A stretch of 64,000 bases of DNA, taken from the NCBI GenBank assembly GCA_964415355.1, contig CAYPYS010000007.1, forward strand, positions 11,208 through 75,207, written 5' to 3'. The stretch is from an uncultured Planctomycetia bacterium (lineage in GTDB: Bacteria; Omnitrophota; Gorgyraeia; Gorgyraeales; Gorgyraeaceae). A model generated the notes under the pieces. It was not told the origin of the DNA. It worked only from the letters and a program-made list of their open reading frames with translations, and did not search any database. The number at the start of each line of letters is the position of its first letter. Position 1 is the stretch's first letter. Shown here piece after piece: positions 13,012-63,657 of the stretch. The position numbers and the translations under genes were made by a program.

Positions 13012-13044
13012 CTTTACACTTTAACGTTGTTGAAATGTAAAGTT
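13010..13044. repeat. Intergenic palindromic repeat, subfamily A
   Basis: Starts on the AA of the TAA stop of the serC-like gene. It lies between serC-like and serA. Confidence 0.85.
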
Positions 13045-27111: not shown

Positions 27112-27114
27112 AGG

Positions 27115-28599: not shown

Positions 28600-28675
28600 G
28601 GTTAATTATGTATATAGCTTAGCGGATTCTATGGTTTTATACAAGTATTTTAGATTAGAATCATTAAGATTTTTC

Positions 28676-28705
28676 TTGACAGGTGAGGGGAGCTTATAGT
28701 ATATT
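28676..28705 (+). promoter_or_regulatory. Candidate promoter for the rimP-nusA-infB operon in the divergent intergenic region
   Basis: TTGACA (28676-28681), 18 nt, TATATT (28700-28705). Confidence 0.35.
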
Positions 28706-28781
28706 GTAGCTACTCTTACGACAAAAAGGGAGGAGTAAGAGGATTAAAGTGGGTAGAAGTTTCACCCGCTTTTTTTATTTT

Positions 28782-33867: not shown

Positions 33868-33900
33868 CTTTACACTTTAACGTTGTTGAAATGTAAAGTT
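33866..33900. repeat. Intergenic palindromic repeat, subfamily A
   Basis: Starts on the AA of the trpS TAA stop. Confidence 0.85.
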
Positions 33901-42686: not shown

Positions 42687-43853
42687 ATGGATATTCAAAA
42701 GCAGTTGGAGATCATAAGGCGTGGTGCAGTAGAGATAATCTCTGAGAAGGAGCTTGCCTCAAAGCTGGAAAGGCAAAAACCCCTTATTGTAAAGGCAGGA
42801 TTTGACCCGAGCGCGCCTGACATACACCTGGGCCACACCGTGCTTTTGCGCAAGCTTAGGCATCTTCAGGACCTCGGTCATAAGGTAGTTTTCCTTATAG
42901 GAGATTTTACAGGCATGATAGGAGATCCTACCGGACGCAGCGAGGTCAGGAAGAGATTGACGCAGAAAGAAGTCAAGGAGAACGCAAAGACCTATAAAAA
43001 GCAGGTTTTTAAAATATTGGACGAGAGAAAGACACAGGTGGTATTCAATAGCAAATGGCTCAGCTCAATGAAGCTGAGTGACTCTTTGGAATTGACCTCG
43101 CACAGCACTGTGTCGCAGCTGCTCGCGAGAGCGGATTTTAATGAAAGATATAAGTCAGGCAAGGACATAAGTCTTCTGGAATTCATGTACCCGCTTCTCC
43201 AGGCATATGATTCTGTGCATCTTAAAGCTGACGTCGAGTTGGGCGGCACTGACCAGAAATTCAATCTGCTTTTAGGCCGCGAGATCCAGAAGGATTACGG
43301 CCAGGAGCCTCAGGCTATTATCATGATGCCGCTTTTGGTCGGGCTTGACGGCACGCAGAAAATGAGCAAGTCTTTCGGGAACCATATAGGCATAGAAGAA
43401 GCTCCGGAGCAGGTATTTGGCAAGATCATGTCTCTCTCAGATGAACTTATGACGCAGTATTACGAGCTATTGACAGACGAGGATCTGGATGGAGTGCGAA
43501 AGCTGCATCCGATGAAGGCAAAGAAGAACCTAGCGCAGAAGATAGTAGGGCAGTATCACGGTGATAAGACAGCATCTCTGGCGCGCAGAGACTTCGAAAA
43601 CAAATTCCAAAAAAAAGACCCCTTTACAGAGCTGGAACCGCAGACAAAACCATACCATAAGACGCTGGCAGATTTTCTAGTAGCAGATAAGATATGTGTC
43701 AGTAAAAGCGAATACAGACGCTTAATGGAGCAGGGGGCAATAGAGGTAAACGGTAGCCGCATCAAAACACCGGATTTCGTATTAGAGCCCTCCAAAGAAT
43801 ATCGCATAAAAGTAGGCAAAAAACGCTTCCTAAAGGTCACCTTTCTCCGTTAA
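42687..43853 (+). CDS. tyrS: Tyrosyl-tRNA synthetase
   Basis: Class I HIGH as HLGH, KMSKS as KMSKS, and a C-terminal S4 domain. The ORF track's MLKCKV start at 42657 is a repeat artefact. Confidence 0.9.
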   Translation: MDIQKQLEIIRRGAVEIISEKELASKLERQKPLIVKAGFDPSAPDIHLGHTVLLRKLRHLQDLGHKVVFLIGDFTGMIGDPTGRSEVRKRLTQKEVKENAKTYKKQVFKILDERKTQVVFNSKWLSSMKLSDSLELTSHSTVSQLLARADFNERYKSGKDISLLEFMYPLLQAYDSVHLKADVELGGTDQKFNLLLGREIQKDYGQEPQAIIMMPLLVGLDGTQKMSKSFGNHIGIEEAPEQVFGKIMSLSDELMTQYYELLTDEDLDGVRKLHPMKAKKNLAQKIVGQYHGDKTASLARRDFENKFQKKDPFTELEPQTKPYHKTLADFLVADKICVSKSEYRRLMEQGAIEVNGSRIKTPDFVLEPSKEYRIKVGKKRFLKVTFLR

Positions 43854-43886
43854 CTTTACACTTTAACGTTGTTAAAATGTAAAGTT
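43852..43886. repeat. Intergenic palindromic repeat, subfamily A
   Basis: Starts on the AA of the tyrS TAA stop. Lies 10 nt upstream of the consensus promoter of giant ORF 1. Confidence 0.85.
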
Positions 43887-43980: not shown

Positions 43981-46900
43981 ATGTATCGCAGGCGCATCAA
44001 CAGGATCACATCCATCGTAACTCTTCTGACGTTTCTTTCCACCAGCACCCTTTACGCAGCACCATCCAGCCGTTCATTCTTCAAAAATAAAAAAGTAGAT
44101 CACAAGAAACTAAGTGACCAGAACGAAGACTTTATAGAGAAAAAAGGCTCTGTCCTTGATATTAAAAATGGCGCAAAGCCCCAGGCGCGCAGGAAAGAGG
44201 CAAGGGCCCTCCTTTCTTCCCATCTAAAGGATTTATCGCAGATACATATACCTTCTGAACTGGGAAGGATAATAGAGGTGTATGAAGGGGAAAAGGATAA
44301 ACGACAAGGAACAAGGCCTTTGATCGTTCATATCCAGGACCTCCACACAAATCCAGAGGCAGAACTTAACCTTGCCAAGATCCTCGAAATACTTATAAAA
44401 GACTATAGCATGAATCTGGTCTGCTCAGAAGGCGCAGACGGAGAGGTGGATACTTCTTCTGTCTCAAGCTTTCCGGATTACTCTGTGAGAGAAAAAGTAG
44501 CCAGGCTCTTCATAGATTCAGGAGAATTGACAGGAGAGGAGTATTTATCGATAACAAAATATCCTGATCTAGCCATATGGGGCATAGAGGATAGAGATAT
44601 ATACTTTAAAAACATAATAGAGTTCAATAAGATTATAAAATTCTCTCCCCAAAGCCACGTATTTATATCCCAGGCCAAAAAGGCCCTGGAGCAACTTAAG
44701 CCCAAGATATGCTCAAGGGAACTAAAAGACCTGGACCAGAAAGAAGCCTCCTATGATAACCAGGAGATAGAGGTAGCCCAGTATCTTAATTACCTCGCTG
44801 ATTATGTTGAGGCACTCGGAATCAATACAAAAGACTATAGAAATGTGAATCTATTGGCTGAATCCATAGACCAGGAAAAGACTATAAATCAACAAAAGAT
44901 AATGGATGAGTCGCAAAGTCTTTTGTTGAACCTTCAGGTCTCTCTTTCTAATAAAAGGATAAAAAAAGAGCAGGATGAACTTATGGCGCGCGCAGAGCTT
45001 TTCAGGGACCAGAAGATCTCACCCTTTTCATTCTATAGCTACTTAAAAGCCTTGGCTCTCAGGCACCTGAAAGAAGGTCTTTCAAAATACCCTGATCTTG
45101 ATCGCTACATCACCTATCTCACGAATGTAAACTCTTTAGACCAGGTGAAACTCTTCAATGAACTAAAAGATCTCGCATACGATATAAAACAGGCCCTCGC
45201 AAGGACGCCTGAACAAAAAAGATTTGTAAAGGCCCTCAGGAACATAAACTTTTTAGAATCTTTCTTTAACCTCAAGGTCTCAAACGAAGAATTAGACTAT
45301 TACCTGGCCAATAGAGACTCCCACAAGGTAGGATTCTTTCAGGATTTTCTGAAACCCACCCTGAAAAAATACAGACTATCGAGTTTCATAGATTATAATA
45401 CAGACCTTATAGACTCAAAGCTTCCTATCCTCGAAGACTTCTACAAGACTGTCAAAGACCGCGACGTAGCAATGGTCAAAAACTCCCTCTCTGAGATCGA
45501 AAACCGCAATTCAAAAGTCTCTGCCCTGATCGCAGGCGGTTTTCATACAAAGGGCATAACAACTTTACTAAGAGACAAAAACTATTCCTATATAGTAGTA
45601 TCCCCATACTCATCCACTGACATAGACGAGGAGAATTATCATTTTCTATTATCAGGTAAACGCAAGCCGCTGACAGAGCTATTGAATAAGCTTGATGCGT
45701 CAGAAATCGTAGACGGGCTTTCCTCAAGCTTAAGGGTAACGGTGGGTTTTGATCTTGATATGCACGATGGCTTAAGAGAAAAGGTTGCCCCTGTGCTCGC
45801 AGAAGAATTAGGCGTATCAGTGGAAGAGGTAACCCCGGAAAATATTCTTGGGAGAATAGTTCCGGTTCTTCTATTGCACAGAGAGGCCTCGAGCTGGTTT
45901 AGTAATTTTGACAAGATTATCGGCGTAGAGATAAAGCGGACTGCCAAGGGACTTGTAATGAAGATATCCCCTAAAGGTAGAGGGACAAAAGCAAGATATA
46001 TTATGGCCACAAGAGATAGCGGGTTTACTCTTGCGACAGCACGTGACTTCAATGCTGCAGGCGCGACAGTAATAGCTGTTGCTCCCGAGAAGAGCCCTCT
46101 GGCAGATACAGAGGATGATTCTTCACTTACCTATGCCGGAGGAGAGCAAGCTAGAAACGTAACTACTTATAATGACCTATCAGCGCAGGGCATCAGGGAT
46201 TCACTGGCGACACTTTCTCGCGACGGCGCTATTTTAGTCCTGGCTGACGGCACAAAGTGGACTGTGAGTGAATGGGATAGCCAGAGCAAGACCGCAGCGC
46301 TTACTGGTCTAGGAGATGCAAAAGGAGAAACGCAATACATATCAGTGCTGGATGACGGCCTGGTTGTCATAAGTGCTACTCCTCTTATTCGCGACTATAC
46401 AGTCGTGGCCATTGCATCGGATGCTTCTGTTTCTGTCAAGATAAAGGCATTGGCAGAGGATATTTTTACGAGTCCTGACAGGGCGCTTGCGACAGCCGCG
46501 CTTCAATATGGCCTGACCCGCGGATTCCAGCCGCTTATCAATTACATATCAGCGCTTCTTGAGAGAGAAGGCGTAAAGGCCCATCCTGAGACAGAGGTCG
46601 TAATGCTGGATGATGTCTTTGAAGGAGAAGATATTTTAGCAAGACTCCTCATAGAAGAAGGCGATATAGTTGTTTACAATAGCGGAAACCTGTCCGAGCA
46701 GGACAAAAGGATTTATACCAATCGTGGCGCAGAGTTAATAGAGATGGACCTCTCGACACCCGTTGGGATGCACAAGTTGTCCGGGCGTCTCGAGAACGGT
46801 AGTATAGACGCGGACCGCGTTAAATTTATTCAGGTTTTGTCCGAGAGAAAACTAGGGACAGAAACTATGTCGCAGTCTGCAAGAGTCGCGCTTTTAGCAC

Positions 46901-48084
46901 TGGCCAGAGAGCATGATTTTCTTTTAGTAGAAGACGCCAGGTACAGGGATCCTGTTTTGTCAGAAAACGAAAGTTTAAAGGCCATCGATTACGAAGGCCT
47001 TGATAGCAGGGTCGTGCAGCTTCGCAGTCTTTCGCAGCTTTTTGGGAAAGACGTAGAGATAGGTTCTGGTTATGCCGTGCTTCCGGCCGCGCTCGCGGTA
47101 AAGTTTGAGGCGACTAAAGGCTCTGTAACGCTTCACCCGAATTCAATGGCGCAGATACTTGTATATAAGGAATTATTGAGGAGATACGGAGATAGAGACA
47201 TTGAATTTTCTGAACTTACTGAGGCAGAGAAAAATCCGGAATTACCGGCCTGGCTCTCGGATAAATTATCTGACTATGGCAGAGGCATCAAGCTTTCAGA
47301 GATAAGAAGGATCCTGAAACTCATGGCCGACCCTGATTTGATTTCATTGGCCGGAGGCATACCTGCCGCCGAACTGTTTCCTTACGAACAGACCTATGAA
47401 CTTATTGCAGAATTCGGCGAAGGAGACTGGAGAACGGCTCTGACTGCTTCTCACAGTCAGGGCATTGAGAGGCTCAGGGCATTGGCAGCAAAGACTGTTG
47501 GCGCCGGCGCAGAGAATGTGCTTATAACAGATGGCTCGCAAGAGGGCCTTGACCTTTTAGGCCGCTTTGTCAGGTCTATTTCGTCAGAGAGGGATGACAG
47601 GGCTAATGAGGTCATAACCCAGAAGCCGACATACCTTGGATTCATGAGCGCTGCGGATCCATATGGATGCGAGGTCCAACCGTATGATCTGAATAATCTA
47701 GAAGGCATTGAAGAACTTAGAAAAGATCTGAGGACGAGAGCTGATGCCGGAGATGCCCTTCCTTCTCTTATGTATATAATGCCTACCTTTGGCAATCCAA
47801 ACGGAGACGTAATGAGTTTAGAGGAAAGGGTAAGGCTTTTGGAGGTAGCAGACGAGTTTGACATAGCCATTGCCGAAGACAATCCATATGGAGCGCTTAG
47901 ATACGAGGGGGAAGCTATCCCTACCTTGCTTGAGTTATCAAGAGAATCAGGCAATGCCACTGTTTTATACCTTGGCACAGTGTCCAAGACATTTACCCCG
48001 GGCATGAGGATAGGCTGGACAGTAGGGCCTGTGGAAATAATACAGCGTTTAACAGCATACAAGGAAGAGACGGTAAAAAGGTAG
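43981..48084 (+). CDS. Giant multi-domain protein 1, upstream segment: conserved hydrophobic N-terminal leader, ~1000-aa region of unknown function, two tandem class-I aminotransferase-fold domains; ends at an in-frame TAG that interrupts the second aminotransferase domain
   Basis: ATG 43981 follows the RBS AGGGGGA. Leader RRRINRITSIVTLLTFLSTSTLYAAP. The first aminotransferase-like domain is degenerate (SQLF in place of the SKxF lysine motif). The second is intact (LAGGIPAAELFP; PTFGNPNGDVMS; GTVSKTFTPGMRIGW). Stop TAG 48082-48084. Confidence 0.75.
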   Translation: MYRRRINRITSIVTLLTFLSTSTLYAAPSSRSFFKNKKVDHKKLSDQNEDFIEKKGSVLDIKNGAKPQARRKEARALLSSHLKDLSQIHIPSELGRIIEVYEGEKDKRQGTRPLIVHIQDLHTNPEAELNLAKILEILIKDYSMNLVCSEGADGEVDTSSVSSFPDYSVREKVARLFIDSGELTGEEYLSITKYPDLAIWGIEDRDIYFKNIIEFNKIIKFSPQSHVFISQAKKALEQLKPKICSRELKDLDQKEASYDNQEIEVAQYLNYLADYVEALGINTKDYRNVNLLAESIDQEKTINQQKIMDESQSLLLNLQVSLSNKRIKKEQDELMARAELFRDQKISPFSFYSYLKALALRHLKEGLSKYPDLDRYITYLTNVNSLDQVKLFNELKDLAYDIKQALARTPEQKRFVKALRNINFLESFFNLKVSNEELDYYLANRDSHKVGFFQDFLKPTLKKYRLSSFIDYNTDLIDSKLPILEDFYKTVKDRDVAMVKNSLSEIENRNSKVSALIAGGFHTKGITTLLRDKNYSYIVVSPYSSTDIDEENYHFLLSGKRKPLTELLNKLDASEIVDGLSSSLRVTVGFDLDMHDGLREKVAPVLAEELGVSVEEVTPENILGRIVPVLLLHREASSWFSNFDKIIGVEIKRTAKGLVMKISPKGRGTKARYIMATRDSGFTLATARDFNAAGATVIAVAPEKSPLADTEDDSSLTYAGGEQARNVTTYNDLSAQGIRDSLATLSRDGAILVLADGTKWTVSEWDSQSKTAALTGLGDAKGETQYISVLDDGLVVISATPLIRDYTVVAIASDASVSVKIKALAEDIFTSPDRALATAALQYGLTRGFQPLINYISALLEREGVKAHPETEVVMLDDVFEGEDILARLLIEEGDIVVYNSGNLSEQDKRIYTNRGAELIEMDLSTPVGMHKLSGRLENGSIDADRVKFIQVLSERKLGTETMSQSARVALLALAREHDFLLVEDARYRDPVLSENESLKAIDYEGLDSRVVQLRSLSQLFGKDVEIGSGYAVLPAALAVKFEATKGSVTLHPNSMAQILVYKELLRRYGDRDIEFSELTEAEKNPELPAWLSDKLSDYGRGIKLSEIRRILKLMADPDLISLAGGIPAAELFPYEQTYELIAEFGEGDWRTALTASHSQGIERLRALAAKTVGAGAENVLITDGSQEGLDLLGRFVRSISSERDDRANEVITQKPTYLGFMSAADPYGCEVQPYDLNNLEGIEELRKDLRTRADAGDALPSLMYIMPTFGNPNGDVMSLEERVRLLEVADEFDIAIAEDNPYGALRYEGEAIPTLLELSRESGNATVLYLGTVSKTFTPGMRIGWTVGPVEIIQRLTAYKEETVKR

Positions 48085-48200
48085 GCTTTGTGCCTGGCTG
48101 GCCGTTTTTAGGAGAGTCAAATCAGATCAGGCTGTCTTTCCCGACAAACTCCCCTGATATTATAGACGGCGCAGTAAAGGCAGTTAGTATTGCCATAAAG
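46380..48200 (+). other. Tandem class-I aminotransferase-fold domains in giant ORF 1 (first degenerate, second intact and interrupted by the frame break)
   Basis: Domain 1: ALLALAREHDFLLVEDARYRD...LRSLSQLFGKDVEIGSGYAV, with Gln where the PLP Lys is expected. Domain 2: ISLAGGIPAAELFP ... EDNPYGALRY ... GTVSKTFTPGMRIGW ... (frame break) ... IRLSFPTNSPDII. Confidence 0.65.
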
Positions 48201-51200
48201 GACAGCATGGGCAAAGGCACCCTGGCTATGGAAGGCCAGGTCCCTGCTGCTGATCTCGAGATCCTTACTAACTTTGGGACAGCCGGATGGCGAGGCACTG
48301 ATTTTACAGACGGCAATGTCAGGCGCATGGCACAGGCTGTTGCCGAAGTAGGGATAGCAGAAATCAATAAGCCTGTTTCTGAGATTCGCATGGCTGTCGG
48401 ATATGATGCAAGGCCTGGTGCCAGGGAAGATGCTATCCTCCTAACAGAGGTTCTGGTAGCGAACGGCATACACGTTGATTTCATAGATCAGGTATTGCCT
48501 TCACCCGTAATGATAGAGGTAACGCACGGAAGCGTTCCTGATTCAGAAAGATATGATCTAACGGTTTATTTTACCGCAAGTCATAATCCCGTGTATCAAT
48601 CGCTTGACCCGCTTAAGCAGTATAAAGGTATAAAGATATTAATAGAGGGTGTTCCTGCCGGCGATGAGTTTACCTCAAAGATATCAGCTCGAGCAAATGA
48701 CCTGGCCAAGAATGCCACATATAAATATATTCCCTTTGATCAGATTCCGGATATGCTTATTACGCATGACGTGGATCTTATTGCAAAAGATAGAGCTCGA
48801 CTTGAAAAAGCCTTTGGGCTTTCAGATTATGGAGTAAAAATAGCCAGATTATTTACTATATTTCCTAATTTGACGATTCGCATAAGTCCGATGAACGGTG
48901 CGACCGTGGAACAGATCGCTATATTCGATAAAATAGGCCTACCTGTAGTTTTTTATGATACCGCGCCTTTGCATGAAGTTATAGCCAGCGGAGAATACGA
49001 GCTTCAGACTGCAGACGGGATAATGAAAGGACCTGATCCGACAAAACCCTATAATCTTAATGCAGAGATGTTAAAAGATACAGAAGGGCAGGATGTCATA
49101 AAGTTTCTTATTGACGGAGACGGGGACCGTCTTGTTGTCGAGGATATAAACGGCAGGCCGATCACGCCTAATGAAATCGGTCTTATCATCGCCCATTATC
49201 TCCTGGAGCACAAGGGCGAGGAAGGTTACGTCGTCCGCACTTTGCCTACTACGAGAATGCTGGATCGTCTCGCAAGAAAATTTGGAATGCCTCTCGCGCA
49301 GACAGGAGTCGGCTCAAAGAACTTCGGGCCTTATACTGTTCAAGGGACCGAGCAGCGTCTTATCGTTGCCGTTGAAGAGAGCGGACATGTTTTCTTTAGA
49401 TTAGGCGATGAGATATTTGTCGACCATGCAGTAGCCGAGGCCTTGATCCTGCTCGATATCATGGCAACGACAGGCAAGACATTGACCCAGTATCTTGAGG
49501 AGGTCGAAAGAGAGCTGGGGACTATTCATTATAAACGGGATGCCGTGGCCAAGGAATTAGCGGTCCCTGGCCTGAAGCGCGGGCTATTGTGGCTGCGCAA
49601 TAATGATCCTGAGCTTTTGGCGCGCGCAATCGCAGATGAACTGGGTATGGATTTGAAAGGTTTTGATCCATTGGATAAGACCGGTGTCCTTGTAACCTTT
49701 GAAGATGATCAATGGATTTTACCTCGCGCATCAGGCACGACAAATACTATAAGGATTTACGCTGAGACGAGTTCTCAGGAAGATCTGGAAAAATGGATAA
49801 GCGGAGCAGAAAGGGTTTTGGTAAAACTTGTCAATGATATGGCTGCTCAAGGCATACTGGACAGGTCTCCGGATATCTGGTCGCATGTTATAGAAAGAGG
49901 AAAATCTCTCGCAGGCGATATCGTGAAGTGGCTCGGCTGGGTAGATGCGCCTGTGAGATTTTTGAAACGGATGTCAAAGATTAGAAGCTTGAAGTCAGAG
50001 CTTGCAGAGGAAGGCATAACCAATGTCGTTGTCCTTGGCACCGGAGGATCAGGCCTGGGTATAGGGACTTACGCCGAGGTCTTTGAAAAAGATAATTTAA
50101 TAGTCATTGATTTAGAAGATCCTCAGGGCATACAGAATGCAATGGCATGGGTCGATGAAAGGGGTTGGGATAAGACGATCTTTACTGTGCAGAGCAAATC
50201 CTGGGGCACTACTGAAACAAGAAACGCAGAGGCAGTTTTCAGGCAGGTCCTGGCTGATCGGATAGGGGCTGAAAATGTAGCCCGGCATTTTATAGCAGTG
50301 ACTGACGCAGGCAGGATAAAGGGAGAAGAGAGGGCTAATTTTAGGGAAATATTTGCGACTAATTATCCCGGAGATGCCAGGAAAGGTCGCGATATAGGTG
50401 GCAGATATTCTTCAGATTCCTTCTTTAGTCTTGTTCCGGCTGAATTAGCAGGCATACCCCATGAAGAGCTTTTAGTGGATGCCCGCGATGAATATAACCA
50501 GTTCAGGCGAGAGCTTGGAGAATATATAGGTGTCCGCATAGGCGCAGAGCTTAGCAGGTTCCACGGCCTTGGCAGAAATAAAATTACCTTTATATTAGAT
50601 AAAGGCCTTGAAGCATTTGGACCGTGGGTGCAGCAGCTTATAAATGAATCCGTAGGCAAGAACGAAGATACCGTAGTCTGTGTTACCGGAGAAGAATTTT
50701 CAGGAGATAGTTCTGTGTATGGGGATGACAGGGTCTTTGTGAAGATCGCTATAGGTAAAGGTCCTGCTATGCAAGTCACAGAACAAGGCATTGTTCTCAT
50801 AGTCGAAAGTAAAAATGACATAAATAGATTGCAATATAGGTTCAAGGTAGCTACTGCTATCCTGGCAAATCTAATGGGTGTGCACCCGTTTAATCAGCCG
50901 TTTGTCGAGAGCAGTAAATGGATTACAAAGGGTCTCCTGGATTCGGAGTTGACTCCTGAGCAGCTCACAGCAGAGCTTGTCGTAGCCGCATCTGAAAATT
51001 TAAAGAAATACGAAGGAGCAGAGGTCGCTATGCATTACACAGGAAGGACAGAAGACGCTATTGACATTGACCTGGAAACTGCTTCTGTGGAAGATGTATT
51101 GGCAGCATTTCTGGCAACAATAGAGTCAGGGGATTATATCTATCTTTCTCCTTATACATTTGATTCTCCTGCGCTGCAAAAGGCCTTTTCTGAGATAAGG

Positions 51201-51899
51201 AGTATTATAAGAGATAATCATCCTGCTCATCCAGCCACGCTTTTTGGCATTGGCTCAAGGAGCCAGCATTCCGACAATCAGCTTAATAACGCCACTGACC
51301 AGGCAACGGTATTGGCGTTTACCTTTGATTCGGCCGAAGGTGTTGATAGGGCAGTGCCCGGTAAAAATTATACACTGGCTCAGGAAAACATGGCGCATGC
51401 ATTGGGAACGGTAGGCGCGCTGGAGGATAAGGGAAGAAGGGTCATGAGGATCCACCTTTCCGATGAGTACAGGCAGGACATAACAAAATTAACAGCACTC
51501 TTTGAGAAAGCCGTTGCAAGGATGCGCGGAATGGAATTAGTCAGGTCATCGAGTAAGCAGCAGGCCGCGTCAATGGAACAGATCCTGGTCGTTCCCGCAA
51601 ACAAGGTAATAGCCGATAAAGAGGGTTTTGAAAAATGGATGTCATCCGGCCGCCAGGAAAATAACGCTGTGGTGATAGTAGCTTATGATGTCGACGAATA
51701 CAATCGGGTCAAGGAATTCGGGGACATTGCCTATATAAGGGTAGTCGGAAAGGATATTAGCGAGGAATACGACCTTAAGCTGCTCCAGATGTTTGCATTG
51801 TTCGGAAAAGATAATATGTTTGGCGGATTTATACTTGGGACACCGGCTGACCTGGATGATTTCAGATCAGTTTCCGAAGAGATATCCTCTGGCGTCTAA
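48090..51899 (+). CDS. Giant multi-domain protein 1, downstream segment: aminotransferase C-terminal tail, alpha-D-phosphohexomutase, phosphoglucose isomerase, conserved C-terminal domain; probably one gene with 43981-48084 via a frame disruption
   Basis: Frame 3 is open from 47934 and overlaps the upstream segment. NQIRLSFPTNSPDIIDGAVKAV matches an aminotransferase C-terminus. Phosphohexomutase loops GTAGWRG, TASHNP, DGDGDR, EESGH and RASGTTNTIRIY. PGI motifs GTGGSGLG, SKSWGTTET and DIGGRYSSDS. The C-terminal domain is shared with the 3703-aa ORF. Confidence 0.75.
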   Translation: MPGWPFLGESNQIRLSFPTNSPDIIDGAVKAVSIAIKDSMGKGTLAMEGQVPAADLEILTNFGTAGWRGTDFTDGNVRRMAQAVAEVGIAEINKPVSEIRMAVGYDARPGAREDAILLTEVLVANGIHVDFIDQVLPSPVMIEVTHGSVPDSERYDLTVYFTASHNPVYQSLDPLKQYKGIKILIEGVPAGDEFTSKISARANDLAKNATYKYIPFDQIPDMLITHDVDLIAKDRARLEKAFGLSDYGVKIARLFTIFPNLTIRISPMNGATVEQIAIFDKIGLPVVFYDTAPLHEVIASGEYELQTADGIMKGPDPTKPYNLNAEMLKDTEGQDVIKFLIDGDGDRLVVEDINGRPITPNEIGLIIAHYLLEHKGEEGYVVRTLPTTRMLDRLARKFGMPLAQTGVGSKNFGPYTVQGTEQRLIVAVEESGHVFFRLGDEIFVDHAVAEALILLDIMATTGKTLTQYLEEVERELGTIHYKRDAVAKELAVPGLKRGLLWLRNNDPELLARAIADELGMDLKGFDPLDKTGVLVTFEDDQWILPRASGTTNTIRIYAETSSQEDLEKWISGAERVLVKLVNDMAAQGILDRSPDIWSHVIERGKSLAGDIVKWLGWVDAPVRFLKRMSKIRSLKSELAEEGITNVVVLGTGGSGLGIGTYAEVFEKDNLIVIDLEDPQGIQNAMAWVDERGWDKTIFTVQSKSWGTTETRNAEAVFRQVLADRIGAENVARHFIAVTDAGRIKGEERANFREIFATNYPGDARKGRDIGGRYSSDSFFSLVPAELAGIPHEELLVDARDEYNQFRRELGEYIGVRIGAELSRFHGLGRNKITFILDKGLEAFGPWVQQLINESVGKNEDTVVCVTGEEFSGDSSVYGDDRVFVKIAIGKGPAMQVTEQGIVLIVESKNDINRLQYRFKVATAILANLMGVHPFNQPFVESSKWITKGLLDSELTPEQLTAELVVAASENLKKYEGAEVAMHYTGRTEDAIDIDLETASVEDVLAAFLATIESGDYIYLSPYTFDSPALQKAFSEIRSIIRDNHPAHPATLFGIGSRSQHSDNQLNNATDQATVLAFTFDSAEGVDRAVPGKNYTLAQENMAHALGTVGALEDKGRRVMRIHLSDEYRQDITKLTALFEKAVARMRGMELVRSSSKQQAASMEQILVVPANKVIADKEGFEKWMSSGRQENNAVVIVAYDVDEYNRVKEFGDIAYIRVVGKDISEEYDLKLLQMFALFGKDNMFGGFILGTPADLDDFRSVSEEISSGV
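48240..49900 (+). other. alpha-D-phosphohexomutase (PGM/PMM/GlmM-family) module within giant ORF 1
   Basis: All four signature loops are present: TASHNP (phosphoserine), DGDGDR (metal), EESGH (sugar) and RASGTTNTIRIY (phosphate). N-terminal GTAGWRG. Confidence 0.8.
50020..51100 (+). other. Phosphoglucose isomerase (SIS/PGI) module within giant ORF 1
   Basis: VVLGTGGSGLGIGTY. SKSWGTTETRN, matching the SKSGTTxET motif. DIGGRYSSDSFFSL, matching the PGI GGRYS signature. Confidence 0.75.
51573..51899 (+). other. Conserved C-terminal cassette shared by both giant ORFs (copy in giant 1)
   Basis: QILVVPANKVIADKEGFEKWMSSGRQENNAVVIVAYDVDEYNRVKEFGDIAYIRVVGKDISEEYDLKLLQMFALFGKDNMFGGFILGTPADLDDFRSVSEEISSGV. 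Confidence 0.8.
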
Positions 51900-51932
51900 C
51901 TTTACATTTCAACGTTGTTGAAATGTAAAGTT
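51898..51932. repeat. Intergenic palindromic repeat, subfamily A (perfect palindrome; first of two after giant ORF 1)
   Basis: AACTTTACATTTCAACGTTGTTGAAATGTAAAGTT. Starts on the AA of the TAA stop. Confidence 0.85.
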
Positions 51933-51953
51933 AAGCAGTGCGCTGACCACCTT

Positions 51954-51988
51954 AACTTCACGCTTTAACGTTGTTGAAGTGTGAAGTT
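51954..51988. repeat. Intergenic palindromic repeat, GC-shifted variant
   Basis: AACTTCACGCTTTAACGTTGTTGAAGTGTGAAGTT. Confidence 0.8.
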
Positions 51989-52038
51989 ATTTTTGGTGTT
52001 GTTGGCAAAGAGATTTAAAAAGAGCAAAATGATTTTAT

Positions 52039-52060
52039 TAGTAATACTATAGATTTACTA
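52039..52060 (+). promoter_or_regulatory. Inverted repeat upstream of the Rrf2 regulator gene (candidate operator)
   Basis: TAGTAAT-actatag-ATTTACTA, 20-40 nt upstream of ATG 52080. The AT-rich context makes this weak. Confidence 0.25.
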
Positions 52061-52079
52061 GCATAGAGGGTATTTTAGT

Positions 52080-52520
52080 ATGAAGATATCTACAAGAATC
52101 AGATATGGCACGCGTTTGATGCTGGAATTAGGGCTTTCTTATAAGGAAGGCCCTATTTTTTTAAAAGATATTGCCAGGAAGCAGGAGATCTCTGAAAAAT
52201 ATTTAAGCCAGATCATCATTCCTCTAAAGGCTGCAGGCCTGATCAATACTTATAATGGCGCTCACAGCGGATATGTCCTAGCTAAATCTCCGCAAGAAAT
52301 AACAGTGAAAGAGATAGCAGAGATCGTAGAAGGGAATTTCGATCTTATAGAATGTGTGACTAACCCTTCCGGATGTGCACGCGCAGCTATGTGTGCGACA
52401 AGAGATCTATGGGATGATCTGGGCAGGACGATCGCGGAAAAACTCGATTCATTCACTATTAAGGATTTAATAGATAGATCCAAAGAAAAACAGGAAAATT
52501 CAACAGCATATAATATCTGA
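52080..52520 (+). CDS. Rrf2/IscR-family transcriptional regulator
   Basis: wHTH N-terminus MKISTRIRYGTRLMLELG...IFLKDIARKQEISEKYLSQII. Three clustered cysteines CVTNPSGCARAAMC, a pattern typical of Fe-S-binding IscR-like regulators. Confidence 0.8.
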   Translation: MKISTRIRYGTRLMLELGLSYKEGPIFLKDIARKQEISEKYLSQIIIPLKAAGLINTYNGAHSGYVLAKSPQEITVKEIAEIVEGNFDLIECVTNPSGCARAAMCATRDLWDDLGRTIAEKLDSFTIKDLIDRSKEKQENSTAYNI

Positions 52521-52545
52521 TTATCCTAGGACAAGGAGATTAAAA

Positions 52546-55500: not shown

Positions 55501-58500
55501 GCTACAGGAGAGGAAAAAGAAGTTACTGTGGTCGTAGAGGGCATAGGAAACGTGGCGCTGGACAGCGGCAGGACAGCTCTCAGATGGATAAATGTCCTGA
55601 ACAGGATATATGGCACAAATGTCAGGCCAAAGATCATATTCCTCTACAGGCGTCCGAGGGAAGAACTGGACCTCAAGGCGCGCGCAGAGGAATTAAAACA
55701 TCTCAGGGAAGAAGGCGTTGACACAATAGACATAGACGTATATGAGCTTCACCAGACCGTTGAATATCTCGGAAATACAAAGGGACATATAGAAGGAATA
55801 AGGGCCATAAGGTATGACAGAAAAGGCGCTAAGGAAGGCGTGCTGGTCGACATCCCCGTTGACATGGTTGTAGAAGCCCTGGGAGCAAAGCCGGCGACCG
55901 AGATATTAGGACCTTCCATACCTTTAAATAGATACGGGTATATCGAGATAGATAATCACAGGACAATGCAGGTAAGAGACATGGACGGCTCTGATGGCCT
56001 GGCGCCTGTATATGCTGTCGGAGACTGCGCAGAGGTGGACGCTATAGATGAAAGGATTATGGCGACCGCTGTCCTTGCTGCAACGCATGGAAAAAGGGCA
56101 TCCGAGGCACTCATAGAAAGACTGGATAATGAGACTGGCATGGTTCAGAGATATATAGATATCGATAAGGTATTTTTTAAAGCTACTCCATACAGGATGC
56201 ATGAGATATTGGAAAGGCGCAGGATAGGCAAAAGAGAGCTTGTATCCAGGCCGCTACGCGGAGATACGGGCAATGTTTTTAGCGAGCAGAGGATCGTGGA
56301 ATTTACTATTTATGCGCCTCATGTAGCCCGCAGGATCAGACCGGGCCAGTTTGTAACGCTGATGGCAGATGAATACAGCGAGAAAATACCTATAACATAT
56401 GTCGGTCTTGGAAAGATAAAAGGCAGTATACGCCTTGCCATCCTTGACGCAGGCGAATCAACAGTAAAAATAAATAATATGAAAAAGGGTGATTTGTTTT
56501 ACGCAGTCACCGGACCTGCAGGAGAACCTTCGATCTTTACAGGGCTGGCAGGCGAGGTAGACCTGGTGGGGTTGGGCAGTGGCATAGCCGCGATTGTCGG
56601 CATCGCCGAGCACAGGGCAGACCTGGACAGGAAATATAAAGAGTTGATGGCCAGGCTGGCAGGCAATTCCCGCGCAGATGTAGTCCTGTCGCTGATAGAA
56701 GAGATTTGGTCAGAATTGAGTCTTGCAAAGGATGATCTTTTGCACTATATAGTCGATGCGATAAGAGACAGGGATTATAATGAAGCAAAGAATCTGTTGA
56801 CAGCACTTGCCTACTCTATTGAACAGGATTTTCCGGCGAGCGAGCTTATAGCAGATGCAGAAGCACTGGTTGATACGATAACCATGCTCGAGGATTCTGT
56901 AGAAGACGAGGATGAATTGAATCTGCTTGTAAAACAGGAGGTCTATCAGGCGATAGACGATATATGGGAAGAGTTTGAGATATTAAAGAGAGAGAAACTA
57001 TTAAGGGAAATCAGTGATTTTGTATCTTCCGGAAATTACAAAAATGCATCTAATGCCTTGAATGCCGTTATCGGCGCAGGCTTTGAGACAAAGGTATTTC
57101 TGGCTGTCGGGAATAAGGATCTTTTGATGTATAAGACCGAGCTGGAAGAGGCTGTTGGCAGGGAGAACATATTCATAGCGCTTGAGGATGCCGAGGGCTT
57201 TGATCCGCATGCCGAAGGATATGCCAGCCTGATAGCGCATGAGAACAGGTTTTTTACAGGTTATGGCACTATTGCTTTTGGGGATTATTTAGGCAGGACG
57301 CATGATCCTATTAGCGGATTGTTGGTAGCAGGACCTGCGTTCGCAATGAATCTTTTTGTGCCATTGGTCAGAGAAGCAAACAGGCCTGATATCCTGAGTA
57401 CGAGAGACGTGTGGATGAGTACTAACCCGCCCATGTACTGTGCCTACGGCGGTTGTTTGATGTGTCTGGTGGCTACAGAACAGGCGATTCCGTGGCGCGG
57501 GTGTTTAGGTCCTGAGGCAGAGGCAGATATGCTTATCGGCGATTCTATTGTCAAGGGGCTTGAAATGAGCAAGCCTCAAGACATAATGCCGGGCGTTATA
57601 TTCAGCACGTCACCTTCTGTTGACAGGGAGCAAGCGATATCTGATATAGTGCAGGCGCTTGATGAGATTCTTTATATGCCTACTGTAGATGGTAAATTAT
57701 TTGTTGCCATATCTGATGCAAAGGGTTCGTTTATCGCTGAGTTAAGAAATGGTATTTTAGAGGAGAGATTATCTGACGAGGATATTGATGCAGTGCTCGA
57801 GAATATTGATTGGGAAAGACTAGGTGTTTTTAAGCCAGGCCATAAGATAAGGTTTGCAGGTAGGATATCCGATGTCTCAGGATTAGAGCTTGATAGGGTC
57901 ATGGAATTGCTCGGACTGACAATGCAGGGTGGAAGCGGTGCAGAAGATTCTGATTCCGGGATGACGCTCGATGATTTATTCAGTAGGAGCTTGGATCTCT
58001 CGATACTTGGCATAGAGGTCATCGGAGAATTCCGCGAGGTCTCTATATCGCCTTCCGGTTTTTCACGGCTCCGGGCGTTCCTTGAGGAGATCGGCGATAG
58101 ACAGAAGTTGGAAGAAATTTTGGGACTCGAAGGAAGTGAGTTTATTTTTGTTATGAATGGCGCGAATGAGCTTGTCGCGATTGTGATCCGCAACGAGACC
58201 AGGCAGAAAGAGCTTCTATGGATAGAGGGAGAGGCATCGTCCGAACTTTTCAGCTATCTGACTCTGAGAGCCTCTCTGCGTGGCAGTTCTATATCCGCGG
58301 ACCTGACAGTGGAGGAGATAAAACCCGGCGCAATACTCGGACCCGGCGCGACCACTACTCCCGCAAGCTCTGCCCTGGCAAAGACAGGGACGTGGACCAC
58401 GAAATACGCAGAGCATGATCTTGATGCGTGCGTGCAGTGTGGCCTGTGCGCACTGGTATGTCCCGAAGGCGCGATAGCGTTTGATATGGAGCCGGCGCTG

Positions 58501-61500
58501 AATACAGGCAGGCTGGTCCTTCCGACAAATCCTGATTATTGCAAGGGCTGCGATGCCTGCGTGGTACATTGTCCTTTAAAAGGATACGCGCTTAAGATGA
58601 TAGAAAAGACAGACCTTCGCCAGGTAGCAGTATCTCTGGATACGAATCCTGAGGGAAGAGGCGTTGTTATCGAAGGCGCTCCGGCATTACAGTTTGAAGG
58701 GCTGTTTAAGGAAGGCATTGATAGATTCAAAAAGGCATTAGGGCTCGATGTAGTTGAGATAATCAGCGAGAGTGAATCTTTTGTGCAGGTGAGGTATGAG
58801 AGAGGTGACATAGCATATCTTTTTACATTCGATAAGAAAAATACAAGATTGATCTTGAAACCATTGAGGACATTTGCCGTCGTTGGCCTTGAGAGTAAAA
58901 ATATTGATCTGGCAGATGCATTGCGCAGCAGGGGATTTGCGGTTACCGGCTTGATTTCTACTAAAGACAGAGGTTTTAGAGATAAATTAATGGAGGCCGA
59001 GAGACAGGGTATCAGTGTTTATGCGATAGAAGCAGGTTTGCTAAACCCTGGTATTAGCGGCAGTCTTCAGGCATTGCTTAATGACATCGAACGCCTGCGT
59101 CTTGCTAGATTTGTCGCGGTTGACACAGAGACGATCAGGGAGATAATCGGCCTGGACGAATACACGAAACTCGTCGAGGAGATAAACGAATATACACATA
59201 ATTCTATAATAAACTCTGTGGATTTGTTGCCGACAGGCAACACAGACTTTGATGAGGTCATGGCGAGTTTTGCTCCCGAATGGCAGGACCAGGTTCGCGA
59301 CCTCGCGCCCGGACACGGCCTATGCCCCGGCTGCGGTCAGCCGACAGACACGCACCTTGTATTAAAGGTAGCGGATGAACATGGAATGGCGCCGGTGGGT
59401 GTCATTACGACAGGCTGCCAGGAAGTCTCGACCACTAACTGGCCTTTTAATTCATGGCGCATACCAATGGTCCACGGAAACTATACAGCATCAGCCGCAA
59501 TCGTCAGCGGTATCTTCCGTGTCTATCAGTGGTTCAAAAAGATGGGCGTAAGTGTTTACGGGGATAAAGAAATCTTGCCTATAGTTATTATGGGAGACGG
59601 TGGTTTTGCAATAGGGCTAAATGTAATATCAGGCGGCCTGGAAAAGGGATTACCGATTTTATATCTGGTCGAGAATAATTCAGGCACTCAGAATACGGGC
59701 GCGCAGGCATCCACGCTTTCGATGCCGGGCATAACTGCGCAAGGCGCCTCACAGGTAAAGACCACGCAAGGCGTGTATATACCTGATATAGCAAAGGCGC
59801 ACGGACCTAACGTCTATTACGCAAGGGTTTCCAATGCATATCCCGAAGATTTTGAGAGAAAATTAAACCGCGCAATGGAATGGATAAAACAGGGAAGAGG
59901 ACCTGCGGTCATAGAGTCTTTTAACACCGCATGCCCTACCGGCTGGAAGTCTGACGCGACACAGAGCCAGGAAGAAACCTCTCTTTCGGTCCAGACAGGC
60001 GTTGGCATGACTGTGCTTTTTGAGCAGGTCGGGAATCGCATAAGGATAACGCAACCACCTCTTCTAAGAGACGGAAAGATATATATAAATACAGAATATA
60101 TGCGAAGCCTGGAATATGAGTTAGGTCATTTAAGGAATGCCGGCGGCAAGAGGCTGTTATCTGACAGACAGGTGGCTTCCATGATTTCGCATATCAAGAA
60201 GAGAAGGGAATTTATTTTGGCAAGAGAGCTTGAAAGAAGACAGCCTAAAAAACCAGGCCTGCCGTTTGTCCAGCTCGACTTAGATGCGTTAAAGAACCTG
60301 CTTGTCCTTCATTCGTTCAACCTGCCTCTGGAGTCAGACCTATTGATAGACAGGTTGGATGTCCTGGGCCTTTCCGGAGACGAGATAGAGGACATTGCGC
60401 AGCATCGGTCAGAGGGTAATGAATTCAGAAACAGGCAGGACGTGCTTCGGTTTATAACCGATGTGCGTTACAGAGAGGTTACGGAAAGAATACTTGATAT
60501 ATATGACACAGTCGAGATCAGGGATTTTATTATGGAATGGACAGAGACAAAGGAAGAGGGAAATATCGATTTCGAGGAGACCGTTGTATTTGAGAAGATA
60601 GAAGATATTTTGAAAGTCCCGGGCATAGGGCCAGTGACGTATGATGCCGTAAGTCCGTATCTTACATTAGAACCGAGAAGACCTCATATATTCGAATACT
60701 TATCGAGACAGGGAAGATTCAGGAGGCTTCTTGGCTGGGATGACGAGGCGTTTCTGGGAGACATGCAGCGAGATGTGGACGCGCATATACTTAGGCTGAT
60801 GGCGCAGCATGAAAACGACAGGGCTTTCTTTGAGAACTTTGATAATTTACTGGCCAGAGGAGAAAAAATCCCGGTAGAGCAGTTCAGGTACAAGTCAGCA
60901 AGGGAGGCGCATGACAAGGCCCTTGTTCCTGCTAGAGTCATACCTGCGGATCCGGAAAGAAACATCAGGATTTTAGAACGCAGGGCAAGGCTAGGGGATA
61001 GGGTTTTTGAAGAACGCTGGCATGGAAGAGGCGGCCAGGGTGCTATTACTGCGGCAACGCTTCTGGCAACATATGCGGGCGAGGTAGAAGGTATAGGCAT
61101 TCAGGCGTTTCCGCACTTTGGGGTCGAACGCGCAGGTGCGCCTGTAAAGGCATATGTCAGAATGGGTAATAATATAAAACAGCATGACCCTGTTACGGAA
61201 CCTGATGTAGTAGTGGTTATAGATGAGTCTTTGCTGGAACTTCCCGAAGTGTTGGAAGGTATAAAGCCGGGCGGTTTTCTATTGGTGAATAGCAAAAAGC
61301 CGGCTGAAAAAATACTGGAAGAATTAAGGGCTAAAGGCAATGCGCTTAAGGATATTACTCTTTTTAGCGTGGACGCTACCGGTATAAGCATAAAACACAT
61401 GGGAAGAAATCTCCCTAATATTCCTATGCTGGCTGCGAGGATTATGGTTTCGAGGCTTACTGATGCAGACTTGGGTCCGGCAGAAGGCGCCACGGATTAC

Positions 61501-63657: not shown

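What the first reader, a model, noticed from the sequence alone, without database searches (positions are those of the whole stretch)
43981..63657. Both giant ORFs are bounded by the same N-terminal hydrophobic leader and the same ~105-aa C-terminal domain: a cassette-flanked family of mega-enzymes
The N-termini are MYRRRINRITSIVTLLTFLSTSTLYAAP (43981-44064) and MTWKIIRKITSIVILITFLSTNVIYAAP (52546-52629), sharing R-ITSIV-L-TFLST---YAAP. The C-termini at 51573-51899 and 63340-63657 are about 50% identical, with the core DIAYI[RK]VVGKDISE...L..L.AL.G..DNFGGF.LG....LD..RS...E.S.G. Everything in between differs: sugar and amino-transfer enzymes in one, redox enzymes in the other. Shared terminal modules around different payloads suggest a common targeting, anchoring or assembly system. 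The leader could be a signal-anchor or a signal peptide. The C-terminal domain could be a docking, oligomerisation or sorting domain. Exporting Fe-S/TPP enzymes through Sec would be problematic, so membrane tethering or an unusual compartment is more plausible. I cannot match the C-terminal domain to any family I know.
Basis: seen in the sequence. Interest (0 to 1): 0.88.

Follow-up and report, generated by a model that had tools for sequence, protein, structure and literature searches.

The report
Leader-and-tail-tagged metabolic enzymes of Omnitrophota
Two very long genes for ordinary sugar- and pyruvate-metabolising enzymes carry the same export-like leader at the front and the same unknown 110-residue domain at the end, and this double tag marks a small, undescribed protein family found only in the uncultured bacterial phylum Omnitrophota, which raises the question of where these cells run their central metabolism.

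Summary
The shared termini are real and far beyond chance: the C-terminal domains are 45% identical over 150 aa (E 1e-26, z 45 against shuffles) and the leaders match at 17 of 28 residues (z 15). One correction is needed. 'Giant 1' is two ORFs in different frames, 43981-48084 and 48090-51899, broken inside an aminotransferase domain. Single-ORF orthologues, and the absence of the genome's gene-end hairpin at the break, show it was one gene.

The tags define a family. An HMM of the C-terminal domain finds 34 cluster representatives among 1.84 billion proteins, always at the extreme C-terminus. Every named locus is Candidatus Omnitrophota. All 12 complete members have the leader. Payloads include PFK, aldolase, PGK, enolase, PGM, PGI, UDP-glucose pyrophosphorylase and PFOR.

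The leader has the shape of a Sec signal peptide but is family-specific. The C-terminal domain is a confident alpha/beta fold with no Pfam, NCBIfam or PDB relative.

Giant 2 keeps 23 of its 24 cysteines in Fe-S ligand motifs and has no twin-arginine motif, so plain Sec export is hard to reconcile with activity. My best reading, at moderate confidence, is membrane targeting by the leader plus docking or assembly by the C-terminal domain. True export is the main rival.

The parts
43981..44058 (+). Leader of ORF A1 (aa 1-26): basic n-region MYRRRINR, hydrophobic core ITSIVTLLTFL, polar c-region STSTLYA
44059..45900 (+). Class II post-leader motif APSSRSFFKNKKVDHKKLS followed by a conserved N-module of about 600 aa (HIQDLHTNPEAE ... 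GGFHT). In most Omnitrophota this module is a stand-alone secreted-looking protein of about 570 aa. Function unknown.
   Evidence: structure model poor
46480..47157 (+). Degenerate first aminotransferase-like region. Weak Pfam hit; the PLP lysine position reads SQ.
   Evidence: E 0.004; the lysine reading is from the sequence
47422..48057 (+). Aminotransferase class I/II domain (Pfam profile 30-243 of 361), with PLP-lysine motif VSKTF at 47980-47994
48072..48092 (+). Break between ORF A1 and ORF A2: GTA AAA AGG TAG, then the frame changes. The A5 run is at 48076-48080. One extra A gives ...TVKKVGFVPGW... No gene-end hairpin follows this stop.
48270..49793 (+). Phosphoglucomutase/phosphomannomutase domains I, III and IV, with TASHNP (48573), DGDGDR (49113) and EESG (49374)
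50004..50666 (+). Phosphoglucose isomerase domain
   Evidence: 58% identical to the PGI region of the single-ORF orthologue P0017
51549..51896 (+). C-terminal domain (CTD) of ORF A2, ending ...EEISSGV-COOH
51897..51989 (.). Two tandem copies of the genome's gene-end hairpin, the first overlapping the TAA stop of A2
52080..52520 (+). Rrf2-family regulator gene, 26 nt upstream of giant B, with no hairpin between them. Probably one transcription unit with B.
52546..52623 (+). Leader of giant B (aa 1-26): MTWKIIRK / ITSIVILITFL / STNVIYA
52642..52659 (+). Class I post-leader motif TLRVPL (aa 33-38), conserved as [TH]LR[VIAP]P[LM] in paralogues with unrelated payloads
54358..56091 (+). GltD/NfnB-like NAD(P)H oxidoreductase: Cys motif CLNCVGRPC, Fer4_20 and Pyr_redox_2 (GSGPAG)
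57439..57504 (+). C-x4-C-x2-C-x12-C motif. I read it as the [2Fe-2S] site of a PyrK/NfnA-like module (inference from motif knowledge; no Pfam hit).
58408..58584 (+). 2x[4Fe-4S] ferredoxin domain (PFOR delta-like), with two CxxCxxCxxxCP motifs
59323..59916 (+). PFOR beta: CPGCG cluster motif and TPP-binding GDG...NN motif
61030..61569 (+). PFOR gamma domain (PF01558)
61738..62778 (+). PFOR alpha (POR_N plus PFOR_II)
63310..63654 (+). C-terminal domain (CTD) of giant B, ending ...TELSTGI-COOH
63656..63690 (.). Gene-end hairpin after giant B. A promoter-like TTGACA/TATAAT and the 16S rRNA 5' end (63906-64000) follow.

Best explanation
The two loci are members of an Omnitrophota-restricted protein family. 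One of them is now broken by a frameshift or deletion. In this family, catalytically intact enzymes of sugar-to-acetyl-CoA metabolism, single or fused in series, sit between two non-catalytic tags. Tag 1 is a family-specific Sec/SRP-type leader. It has a dibasic n-region, a hydrophobic core of 11-13 residues, and a polar c-region [ST]N-x-x-Y-[AGS]. A short conserved motif follows, either [TH]LR[VP]P[LM] or PSxRSFFKNKKVDY. Tag 2 is an alpha/beta domain of about 110 residues that always ends the protein, usually in G-[VI]-COOH. Shown: the family, its taxonomic restriction, the strict leader and C-terminal-domain (CTD) co-occurrence, the terminal position of the CTD, its fold class, its lack of known relatives, and the preservation of catalytic and Fe-S ligand motifs. 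Inferred: the leader brings the nascent chain to the cytoplasmic membrane. The CTD, which has no conserved polar catalytic residues, is a docking or assembly module that gathers different family members at one place, much as a dockerin does in a cellulosome. The result would be a membrane-associated sugar-catabolic assembly. Giant B must receive six Fe-S clusters, TPP and FAD, and it lacks a twin-arginine signal. I therefore think the payload most likely folds and works on the cytoplasmic side, with the leader acting as an uncleaved or stalled anchor helped by the K/R-rich stretch after it. By sequence rules alone, however, the leader looks like a cleavable export signal.
Against: By the n-h-c shape, the short h-core, small residues at -1 and -3, and (in many class I members) a neutral or acidic stretch after the site, the leader is what a cleavable Sec signal peptide looks like. 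That predicts export, not cytoplasmic tethering. P0019 is only an ordinary signal peptide plus the CTD, which suggests the CTD can act outside the cytoplasm. A 2026 preprint on Omnitrophota proteins of at least 10 kAA concludes from DeepTMHMM that multi-enzyme content lies on the periplasmic or extracellular face (10.64898/2026.06.07.730766). No partner for the CTD was found, and no oligomer prediction could be run. No signal-peptide or topology predictor was available here. Whether leaderless paralogues of these enzymes exist in the same genome is unknown.
Confidence: 0.42

Rival explanations
1. True export. The leader is a cleaved Sec signal peptide. The CTD, with its conserved free G-V-COOH end, is a sorting or secretion signal, as in T9SS cargo, or a surface-docking module. 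The enzymes would then act in the periplasm, on the cell surface, or inside a host or prey cell, in the way microsporidia secrete hexokinase into their hosts.
For: The leader has canonical signal-peptide anatomy and meets the -3/-1 rule in nearly all members. P0019 is a signal peptide plus the CTD alone. Some payloads, such as GH15 glucoamylase and aldose epimerase, are often extracytoplasmic. Omnitrophota are inferred to be ultra-small host-dependent or predatory cells with secreted giant proteins (PMC10066038; 10.1101/2023.11.21.568195). The 2026 preprint predicts SP or SP+TM for 48% of the long proteins.
Against: PFK, PGK, GalK and UDPGP need nucleotide triphosphates. PFOR needs CoA, TPP and ferredoxin. 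B keeps the ligands for six Fe-S clusters, which cannot be assembled after Sec transport, and there is no twin-arginine motif. The K/R-rich segment right after the leader in both window proteins would hinder Sec translocation in model bacteria (established knowledge). The CTD is alpha/beta, not the beta-sandwich of T9SS CTDs.
Confidence: 0.3
2. Targeting to an internal compartment or a self-assembling body, a bacterial analogue of the glycosome. The leader with its LRVPL motif and the C-terminal SGV end would act as two import or encapsulation signals, so that a whole pathway is sequestered.
For: Many steps of one pathway carry the same two tags. The tags sit at both extreme termini, as PTS2 and PTS1 do. 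Other enzymes in the window, such as gpmA, serA, hisC and aroF, have no tag.
Against: No shell, encapsulin or organelle genes were seen in any fetched locus. The leader is uniformly hydrophobic, not amphipathic like BMC encapsulation peptides. No compartment has been reported in Omnitrophota in the papers read.
Confidence: 0.12
3. Polyprotein precursors. The long chains are cut into single enzymes, and the leader and CTD are pro-regions or processing handles rather than localisation signals.
For: In several relatives a motif LASN[AE]G[LIV] recurs exactly at domain borders, including just before the CTD. West-Roberts et al. propose cleavage of Omnitrophota giant proteins.
Against: The window proteins lack that motif. 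Single-enzyme members of 800-930 aa still carry both tags. No protease domain was found in the window proteins.
Confidence: 0.1
4. Chance similarity, a recent local duplication, or decaying pseudogenes with no function.
For: ORF A1/A2 is frameshifted and its aminotransferase is internally truncated. L002 and L003 carry an in-frame TGA in a family member.
Against: z = 15-45 against shuffles. There are 34 diverged representatives across many assemblies. CTD identity between the two window copies is only 45%. Catalytic and Fe-S motifs are kept while non-ligand Cys are purged. Synteny is conserved.
Confidence: 0.03

Closest known systems
Cellulosomal enzymes with a C-terminal dockerin (signal peptide, catalytic modules, dockerin)
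   Same: An N-terminal signal, interchangeable catalytic payloads, and one conserved non-catalytic module of about 70-110 aa at the C-terminus shared by many enzymes of one pathway. Dockerin-bearing giant proteins exist in Omnitrophota.
   Different: The CTD gives no dockerin Pfam hit and is an alpha/beta fold, not a Ca-binding duplicated loop-helix. The payloads are cytoplasm-type glycolytic and Fe-S enzymes, not glycoside hydrolases acting on external polymers. No cohesin-like partner is known.
Type IX secretion cargo (Sec signal peptide, payload, conserved CTD of about 80-100 aa; TIGR04183)
   Same: The same three-part logic, with the CTD strictly at the extreme C-terminus.
   Different: The T9SS CTD is an Ig-like beta-sandwich and is typical of Bacteroidota. 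Here the fold is alpha/beta, there is no NCBIfam hit, and the phylum is Omnitrophota.
Omnitrophota 'multi-enzyme metabolic cluster' long proteins (bioRxiv 10.64898/2026.06.07.730766) and Archaeovorins (bioRxiv 10.1101/2023.11.21.568195)
   Same: The same phylum. Many unrelated metabolic Pfam domains (PGM and others) tile one polypeptide, and an N-terminal signal peptide is predicted. The same puzzle of metabolic domains predicted outside the cell arises.
   Different: Those catalogues cover proteins of at least 10,000 aa, mostly with many TM helices. The present family is 0.8-3.8 kAA with one N-terminal hydrophobic segment. Its shared leader motif and CTD are not mentioned in those papers.
Glycosome targeting in kinetoplastids (PTS1 C-terminal tripeptide, PTS2 N-terminal nonapeptide); secreted hexokinase of microsporidia (PMC6152459)
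   Same: Glycolytic enzymes as a group carry terminal localisation signals. A conserved extreme C-terminal tripeptide (SGV/SGI) and a short N-proximal motif recall PTS1 and PTS2. Parasites can export a glycolytic enzyme into the host.
   Different: This is analogy only. It concerns eukaryotic peroxisomal import machinery, and no homology or compartment has been shown here.
Pyruvate:NADP+ oxidoreductase of Euglena and Cryptosporidium (PFOR fused to an NADPH-linked reductase)
   Same: Giant B fuses all the PFOR domains to an NAD(P)H-linked flavoprotein module (GltD/Nfn-like), so pyruvate oxidation and pyridine-nucleotide reduction could be coupled in one chain (functional reading inferred).
   Different: The reductase partner is different: GltD/PyrK-like, not cytochrome-P450-reductase-like. 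The domain order is different, there are long unknown inserts, and the leader and CTD are added.

Membership tests
Sec/SPase I signal peptide | Basic n-region, hydrophobic h-region of about 7-15 residues, polar c-region with small residues at -1 and -3 | tested here: met
   In 26 leaders the n-region charge is 0 to +4 (+1 to +4 where the N-terminus is complete), the h-core is 11-13 residues (KD12 1.8-3.3), and the c-region is [ST]N..Y[AGS]. This is a heuristic reading; SignalP and DeepTMHMM were not available.
Sec/SPase I signal peptide | An early mature region that is not strongly basic, so that it is compatible with translocation | tested here: inconclusive
   The window proteins have +5 or +6 K/R in the next 20 residues, while many class I paralogues are neutral or acidic there.
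Tat (twin-arginine) signal | S/T-R-R-x-F-L-K motif before a weakly hydrophobic h-region | tested here: not met
   Only A1 has RRR. B has RK and the family consensus is [KR]K. The h-regions are strongly hydrophobic.
T9SS C-terminal domain (Por_Secre_tail) | A C-terminal beta-sandwich domain matching TIGR04183-type models | tested here: not met
   There is no NCBIfam or Pfam hit even at E of 10 or less. The AF2 model is beta-alpha-beta Rossmann-like.
Dockerin (PF00404) | A duplicated Ca-binding segment giving a Pfam dockerin match | tested here: not met
   A Pfam scan of 25 CTDs finds no dockerin.
PEP-CTERM, LPXTG and other sortase-type C-terminal signals | A short motif followed by a C-terminal TM helix and a basic tail | tested here: not met
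   The CTD is a soluble alpha/beta domain ending in SGV or TGI, with no C-terminal hydrophobic stretch.
Omnitrophota multi-enzyme long proteins (2026 preprint class 1) | Many distinct Pfam families tile one polypeptide, with a signal peptide or TM predicted, in phylum Omnitrophota | tested here: met
Omnitrophota multi-enzyme long proteins (2026 preprint class 1) | Length of at least 10,000 aa (the catalogue threshold) | tested here: not met
   1367 + 1269 aa and 3703 aa in the window; the family range is 138-3787 aa.
Pyruvate:ferredoxin oxidoreductase (payload of giant B) | POR_N, PFOR_II, POR gamma, TPP_enzyme_C with the GDG..NN motif, a 2x[4Fe-4S] delta domain, and the beta-subunit Cys ligands | tested here: met
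Bacterial microcompartment or encapsulin cargo | A terminal amphipathic encapsulation peptide, and shell genes in the genome | not testable with these tools
   The leader is uniformly hydrophobic. No shell genes were seen in the fetched loci, but the whole genome is not available.

The most novel reading that the evidence does not exclude
A clade of Omnitrophota routes a large part of its sugar-to-acetyl-CoA pathway (PGM, PGI, PFK, aldolase, PGK, enolase, PFOR and others) out of the ordinary cytoplasm. The destination would be a dedicated compartment, the periplasm or cell coat, or an attached host cell. Routing would use a two-ended signal made of the family-specific leader with the LRVPL motif and a new C-terminal domain ending in SGV-COOH. 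This would be a prokaryotic counterpart of the glycosome, or a set of injected metabolic effectors.
Probability: 0.2. Interest if true: 0.95.

Novelty: new variant of a known kind. Interest (0 to 1): 0.7.

Why it matters
Omnitrophota are abundant, uncultured, ultra-small and apparently host-dependent bacteria whose long proteins are unexplained. This family offers a compact, tractable handle on that problem. Members are 0.8-3.8 kAA, which is small enough to express. They have one leader, one new terminal domain and recognisable active enzymes.

If the tags direct localisation or assembly, they show how these cells organise central metabolism. The question of whether the metabolic domains of Omnitrophota long proteins lie inside or outside the cell then becomes directly testable, with leader-reporter fusions, N-terminal proteomics and CTD pull-downs.

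The CTD is also a new domain family with a confident predicted fold and no annotation. Giant B suggests a self-contained pyruvate:NAD(P)+ oxidoreductase built from PFOR and Nfn-like parts.

Tried and rejected

(3) Source lookup. An exact-sequence lookup of giant B found no contig. The only matching contig for A2's C-terminus is 839 nt and does not reach the frameshift.

(4) Metagenome scan. 

(5) Stop-codon recoding. I considered this because TGA is rare as a stop (1 of 42) and L002 and L003 have an in-frame TGA. I rejected it for the window. TGA is not depleted in the DNA, and the TAA excess is explained by the stop-overlapping hairpin.

(6) Tat export. Rejected, because there is no RR consensus.

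(7) Local duplication or chance. Rejected.

(8) Programmed -1 frameshift at A_AAA_AGG. It cannot be excluded, but about 75-95 residues of the aminotransferase are missing at the same point. A deletion or an assembly error is therefore the simpler reading.
Full report
**What is in the sequence**

The region holds four ORFs on the + strand, not two.
- ORF A1 runs 43981-48084 (1367 aa from the ATG).
- ORF A2 runs 48090-51899 (1269 aa, in a different frame).
- A small Rrf2-family regulator gene lies at 52080-52520.
- Giant B runs 52546-63657 (3703 aa).

Pfam assigns these domains:
- A1 has an aminotransferase class I/II domain covering profile positions 30-243 of 361.
- A2 has PGM/PMM domains I, III and IV, and PGI.
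- B has a GltD-like Fer4_20 plus Pyr_redox_2 module, a 2x[4Fe-4S] ferredoxin domain, and PFOR beta (TPP_enzyme_C), gamma (POR) and alpha (POR_N, PFOR_II).

The surrounding genes are ordinary housekeeping genes: nusA, infB, trpS, scpA, scpB, pheA, hisC, aroF, tyrA, plsC, ispH, rpsA and tyrS. The window ends in the 5' end of a 16S rRNA gene.

**Check of the observation**

The two leaders are identical at 17 of 28 positions. The two C-termini align over 150 aa at 45% identity with E 1e-26. In 2000 composition-preserving shuffles, no shuffle reached the observed score. The z-score is 45 for the C-terminal domain and 15 for the leader. A six-frame search of the window finds no third copy of either module. 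The similarity is therefore real.

A1 ends at a TAG inside its aminotransferase domain, and A2 continues in another frame with the C-terminal tail of an aminotransferase (IRLSF motif).

Three results show that A1 and A2 were one gene:
- The single-ORF proteins P0017 (2766 aa) and P0035 (3702 aa) match the A1 N-terminus at 55-61% identity. Further along the same chain they match the PGI or PGM region of A2 and its C-terminal domain.
- A 35-nt hairpin that overlaps the TAA stop of most genes in this window follows tyrS, A2 and B but is absent after the A1 stop. It has 31 sites in the window against 0 expected by chance, and 23 of them start one base before an ORF end.
- Adding one A to the A5 run at 48076-48080 joins the frames.

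About 75-95 residues of the aminotransferase are still missing at exactly this junction. A deletion or an assembly error is therefore more likely than a simple homopolymer miscount, and a programmed -1 shift cannot be excluded. As the sequence stands, A1 has the leader without the C-terminal domain and A2 has the C-terminal domain without a leader.

**The family**

The C-terminal domain (CTD, about 110 aa) is very rare.
- A word-indexed search of 5.8 billion proteins found two relatives.
- A profile search that read all 1.84 billion cluster representatives found 34. Of these, 22 have E of 1e-10 or less, and the best CTD match ends at the last residue in 30 of the 34, including all 24 with E of 1e-9 or less.
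- All five loci found in the species-representative genome set are Candidatus Omnitrophota MAGs. Five further metagenome loci were found.

Payloads differ from member to member. The Pfam scans identified phosphofructokinase, phosphoglycerate kinase, enolase, PGM, PGI, UDP-glucose pyrophosphorylase, 6-phosphogluconolactonase/GlcN6P isomerase, GH15 glucoamylase with galactokinase and aldose epimerase, and an aldo-keto reductase. From the sequences returned, without a domain scan, I also read a class II fructose-bisphosphate aldolase (P0013), a Glu/Leu-type dehydrogenase (P0018) and a nucleotidyltransferase (P0009).

Every complete member has the leader, 12 of 12. The two apparently leaderless members I checked are fragments, one cut by a scaffold gap and one by a contig edge. 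One member, P0019 (138 aa), is only a signal peptide plus the CTD. Leaders of the same type also occur on neighbouring multi-enzyme proteins that lack the CTD, so the two tags are separable modules.

Family genes lie in tandem and in conserved synteny: proS, then giant(s), then rimP, nusA, infB, trpS, scpAB and pheA. In the window that slot is empty, and A1/A2 lies about 15 kb further on, after tyrS.

**Anatomy of the tags**

The leader has three parts:
- a basic n-region, with charge 0 to +4 across the 26 leaders and +1 to +4 where the N-terminus is complete, and a consensus [KR]K-[IV]-[IV]-S;
- a hydrophobic core of 11-13 residues;
- a polar c-region [ST]N-x-x-Y-[AGS], usually followed by A-P.

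This is the shape of a cleavable Sec signal peptide. It is, however, much more conserved than that function requires. It also differs from the ordinary signal peptides and lipoboxes of other exported proteins in the same window.

A short motif follows within ten residues. In class I, which includes B, the motif is [TH]LR[VIAP]P[LM]. In class II, which includes A1, it is PSxRSFFKNKKVDY. The class II motif opens a conserved N-module of about 600 aa. In most Omnitrophota this module is a stand-alone 'hypothetical protein' of about 570 aa with its own signal peptide.

Neither window protein has any other TM-like segment.

**Are the enzymes real?**

The catalytic motifs are intact:
- TASHNP, DGDGDR and EESG in PGM;
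- the PLP lysine motif VSKTF;
- GDG...NN for TPP;
- two CxxCxxCxxxCP motifs;
- CPGCG in PFOR beta.

B has only 24 cysteines in 3703 residues, and 23 of them lie in motifs that I read as ligands of six Fe-S clusters. A1 and A2 together have four cysteines in 2636 residues. Non-ligand cysteines have been purged and ligand cysteines kept, which indicates selection for a working Fe-S enzyme. An Rrf2 (IscR-type) regulator gene lies 26 nt upstream of B with no gene-end hairpin between them.

The domain content of B is a GltD/Nfn-like flavoprotein plus a complete PFOR. This suggests a self-contained pyruvate:NAD(P)+ oxidoreductase, though that reading is an inference.

**How it most likely works**

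The data show a two-ended tag on active enzymes of central carbon metabolism. The tags most resemble a signal peptide together with a terminal docking or sorting domain, as in dockerin-bearing cellulosomal enzymes or T9SS cargo. Membership in those families was tested and failed on fold and profile.

The difficulty is the side of the membrane.
- For export: the leader anatomy, the neutral or acidic region after the leader in many class I members, and P0019 all point that way.
- Against export: there is the need for ATP, UTP, CoA, NAD(P)H and ferredoxin. B has six Fe-S clusters and the family has no twin-arginine motif (only A1 has RRR). In both window proteins, +5 or +6 K/R follow the leader within 20 residues.

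I commit, at about 0.4, to this reading: the leader provides membrane targeting and tethering, the payload stays on the cytoplasmic side, and the CTD assembles family members into a membrane-associated sugar-catabolic complex. True export to the periplasm, the surface or a host cell is the main rival at about 0.3. A dedicated compartment (about 0.12) and polyprotein processing (about 0.1) follow. The processing idea rests on the LASN[AE]G motif at domain borders in relatives, which the window proteins lack.

**Literature**

Multi-enzyme long proteins with predicted signal peptides have been catalogued in Omnitrophota, but only for proteins of at least 10,000 aa (bioRxiv 10.64898/2026.06.07.730766). 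Giant ORFs were noted earlier (PMC10066038; bioRxiv 10.1101/2023.11.21.568195). None of the papers read mentions a shared leader motif or this C-terminal domain. Database names for members are 'hypothetical protein' or follow the payload enzyme.

**Verdict**

The family claim is supported. The CTD is a new domain family. The localisation logic is unresolved but testable.

I rate it as a new variant of a known kind: terminal-tag-directed enzyme families, applied here to cytoplasm-type metabolism in an uncultured phylum. Interest is 0.7.

Noticed in passing
window, 31 sites, e.g. 6567-6601, 13010-13044, 33866-33900, 43852-43886, 51898-51932, 63656-63690: A 35-nt perfect-stem hairpin, AACTTTACAYTTYAAC-GTT-GTTRAAATGTAAAGTT, occurs 31 times against 0 expected by chance. 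At 23 sites it starts one base before an ORF end, so the TAA stop codon is part of the element. This explains the stop usage of TAA 35, TAG 6 and TGA 1. It looks like genome-wide gene-end punctuation, acting as a terminator, an RNA-processing site or a REP-like element. It also creates spurious TTG 'LLKCKV' ORF starts.
   Followed up: partly
window 48072-48092: The A1/A2 break coincides with a gap of about 75-95 residues in the aminotransferase homology. The sequence there is A_AAA_AGG TAG, followed 5 nt later by a GTG. The cause could be a deletion, a misassembly, a -1 frameshift site or translational coupling. This was not resolved.
   Followed up: partly
L002 335-337 and L003 (two independent ENA assemblies): Both assemblies have the same in-frame TGA inside a CTD-family gene, at a position where the homologue P0010 has Gly (SIVER*RKVAL against SIVNQGRKVAL). 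It may be a pseudogene, readthrough or recoding.
   Followed up: partly
P0012 and L006:46-5637: The enolase domains are in permuted order, with Enolase_C before Enolase_N, in two family members. In P0011 the order is normal.
   Followed up: no
P0006, P0011, P0013, P0017, L006 ORFs: A motif LASN[AE]G[LIV] recurs at domain borders in several relatives, including just before the CTD. It may be a processing or linker signal. The window proteins lack it.
   Followed up: partly
window 25382-29231, compared with L008, L012, L013, L014 and L016: In relatives the A1-type giant lies between proS and rimP-nusA. In the window that slot holds a minus-strand 494-aa membrane ORF (27115-28599), and the giant lies after tyrS. 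This indicates a local rearrangement. L016 also carries a duplicated proS tail fragment beside its giants.
   Followed up: no
window 63700-64000: A strong TTGACA/TATAAT-like promoter and the first 95 nt of a bacterial 16S rRNA gene (63906-64000, Rfam 70.9 bits) directly follow giant B.
   Followed up: partly
window 52546-63657 (giant B), 43981-51899 (A1/A2): Cysteine is extremely depleted. B has 24 Cys in 3703 aa, 23 of them in Fe-S ligand motifs. A1 and A2 together have 4 Cys in 2636 aa.
   Followed up: partly
window 44059-45900; P0036-P0091: The N-module of about 600 aa in A1 (HIQDLHTNPEAE ... GGFHT ... EENYHFLLSGKRKP) is a widespread Omnitrophota-specific protein. It is usually stand-alone with its own signal peptide, and its fold and function are unknown.
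   Followed up: partly
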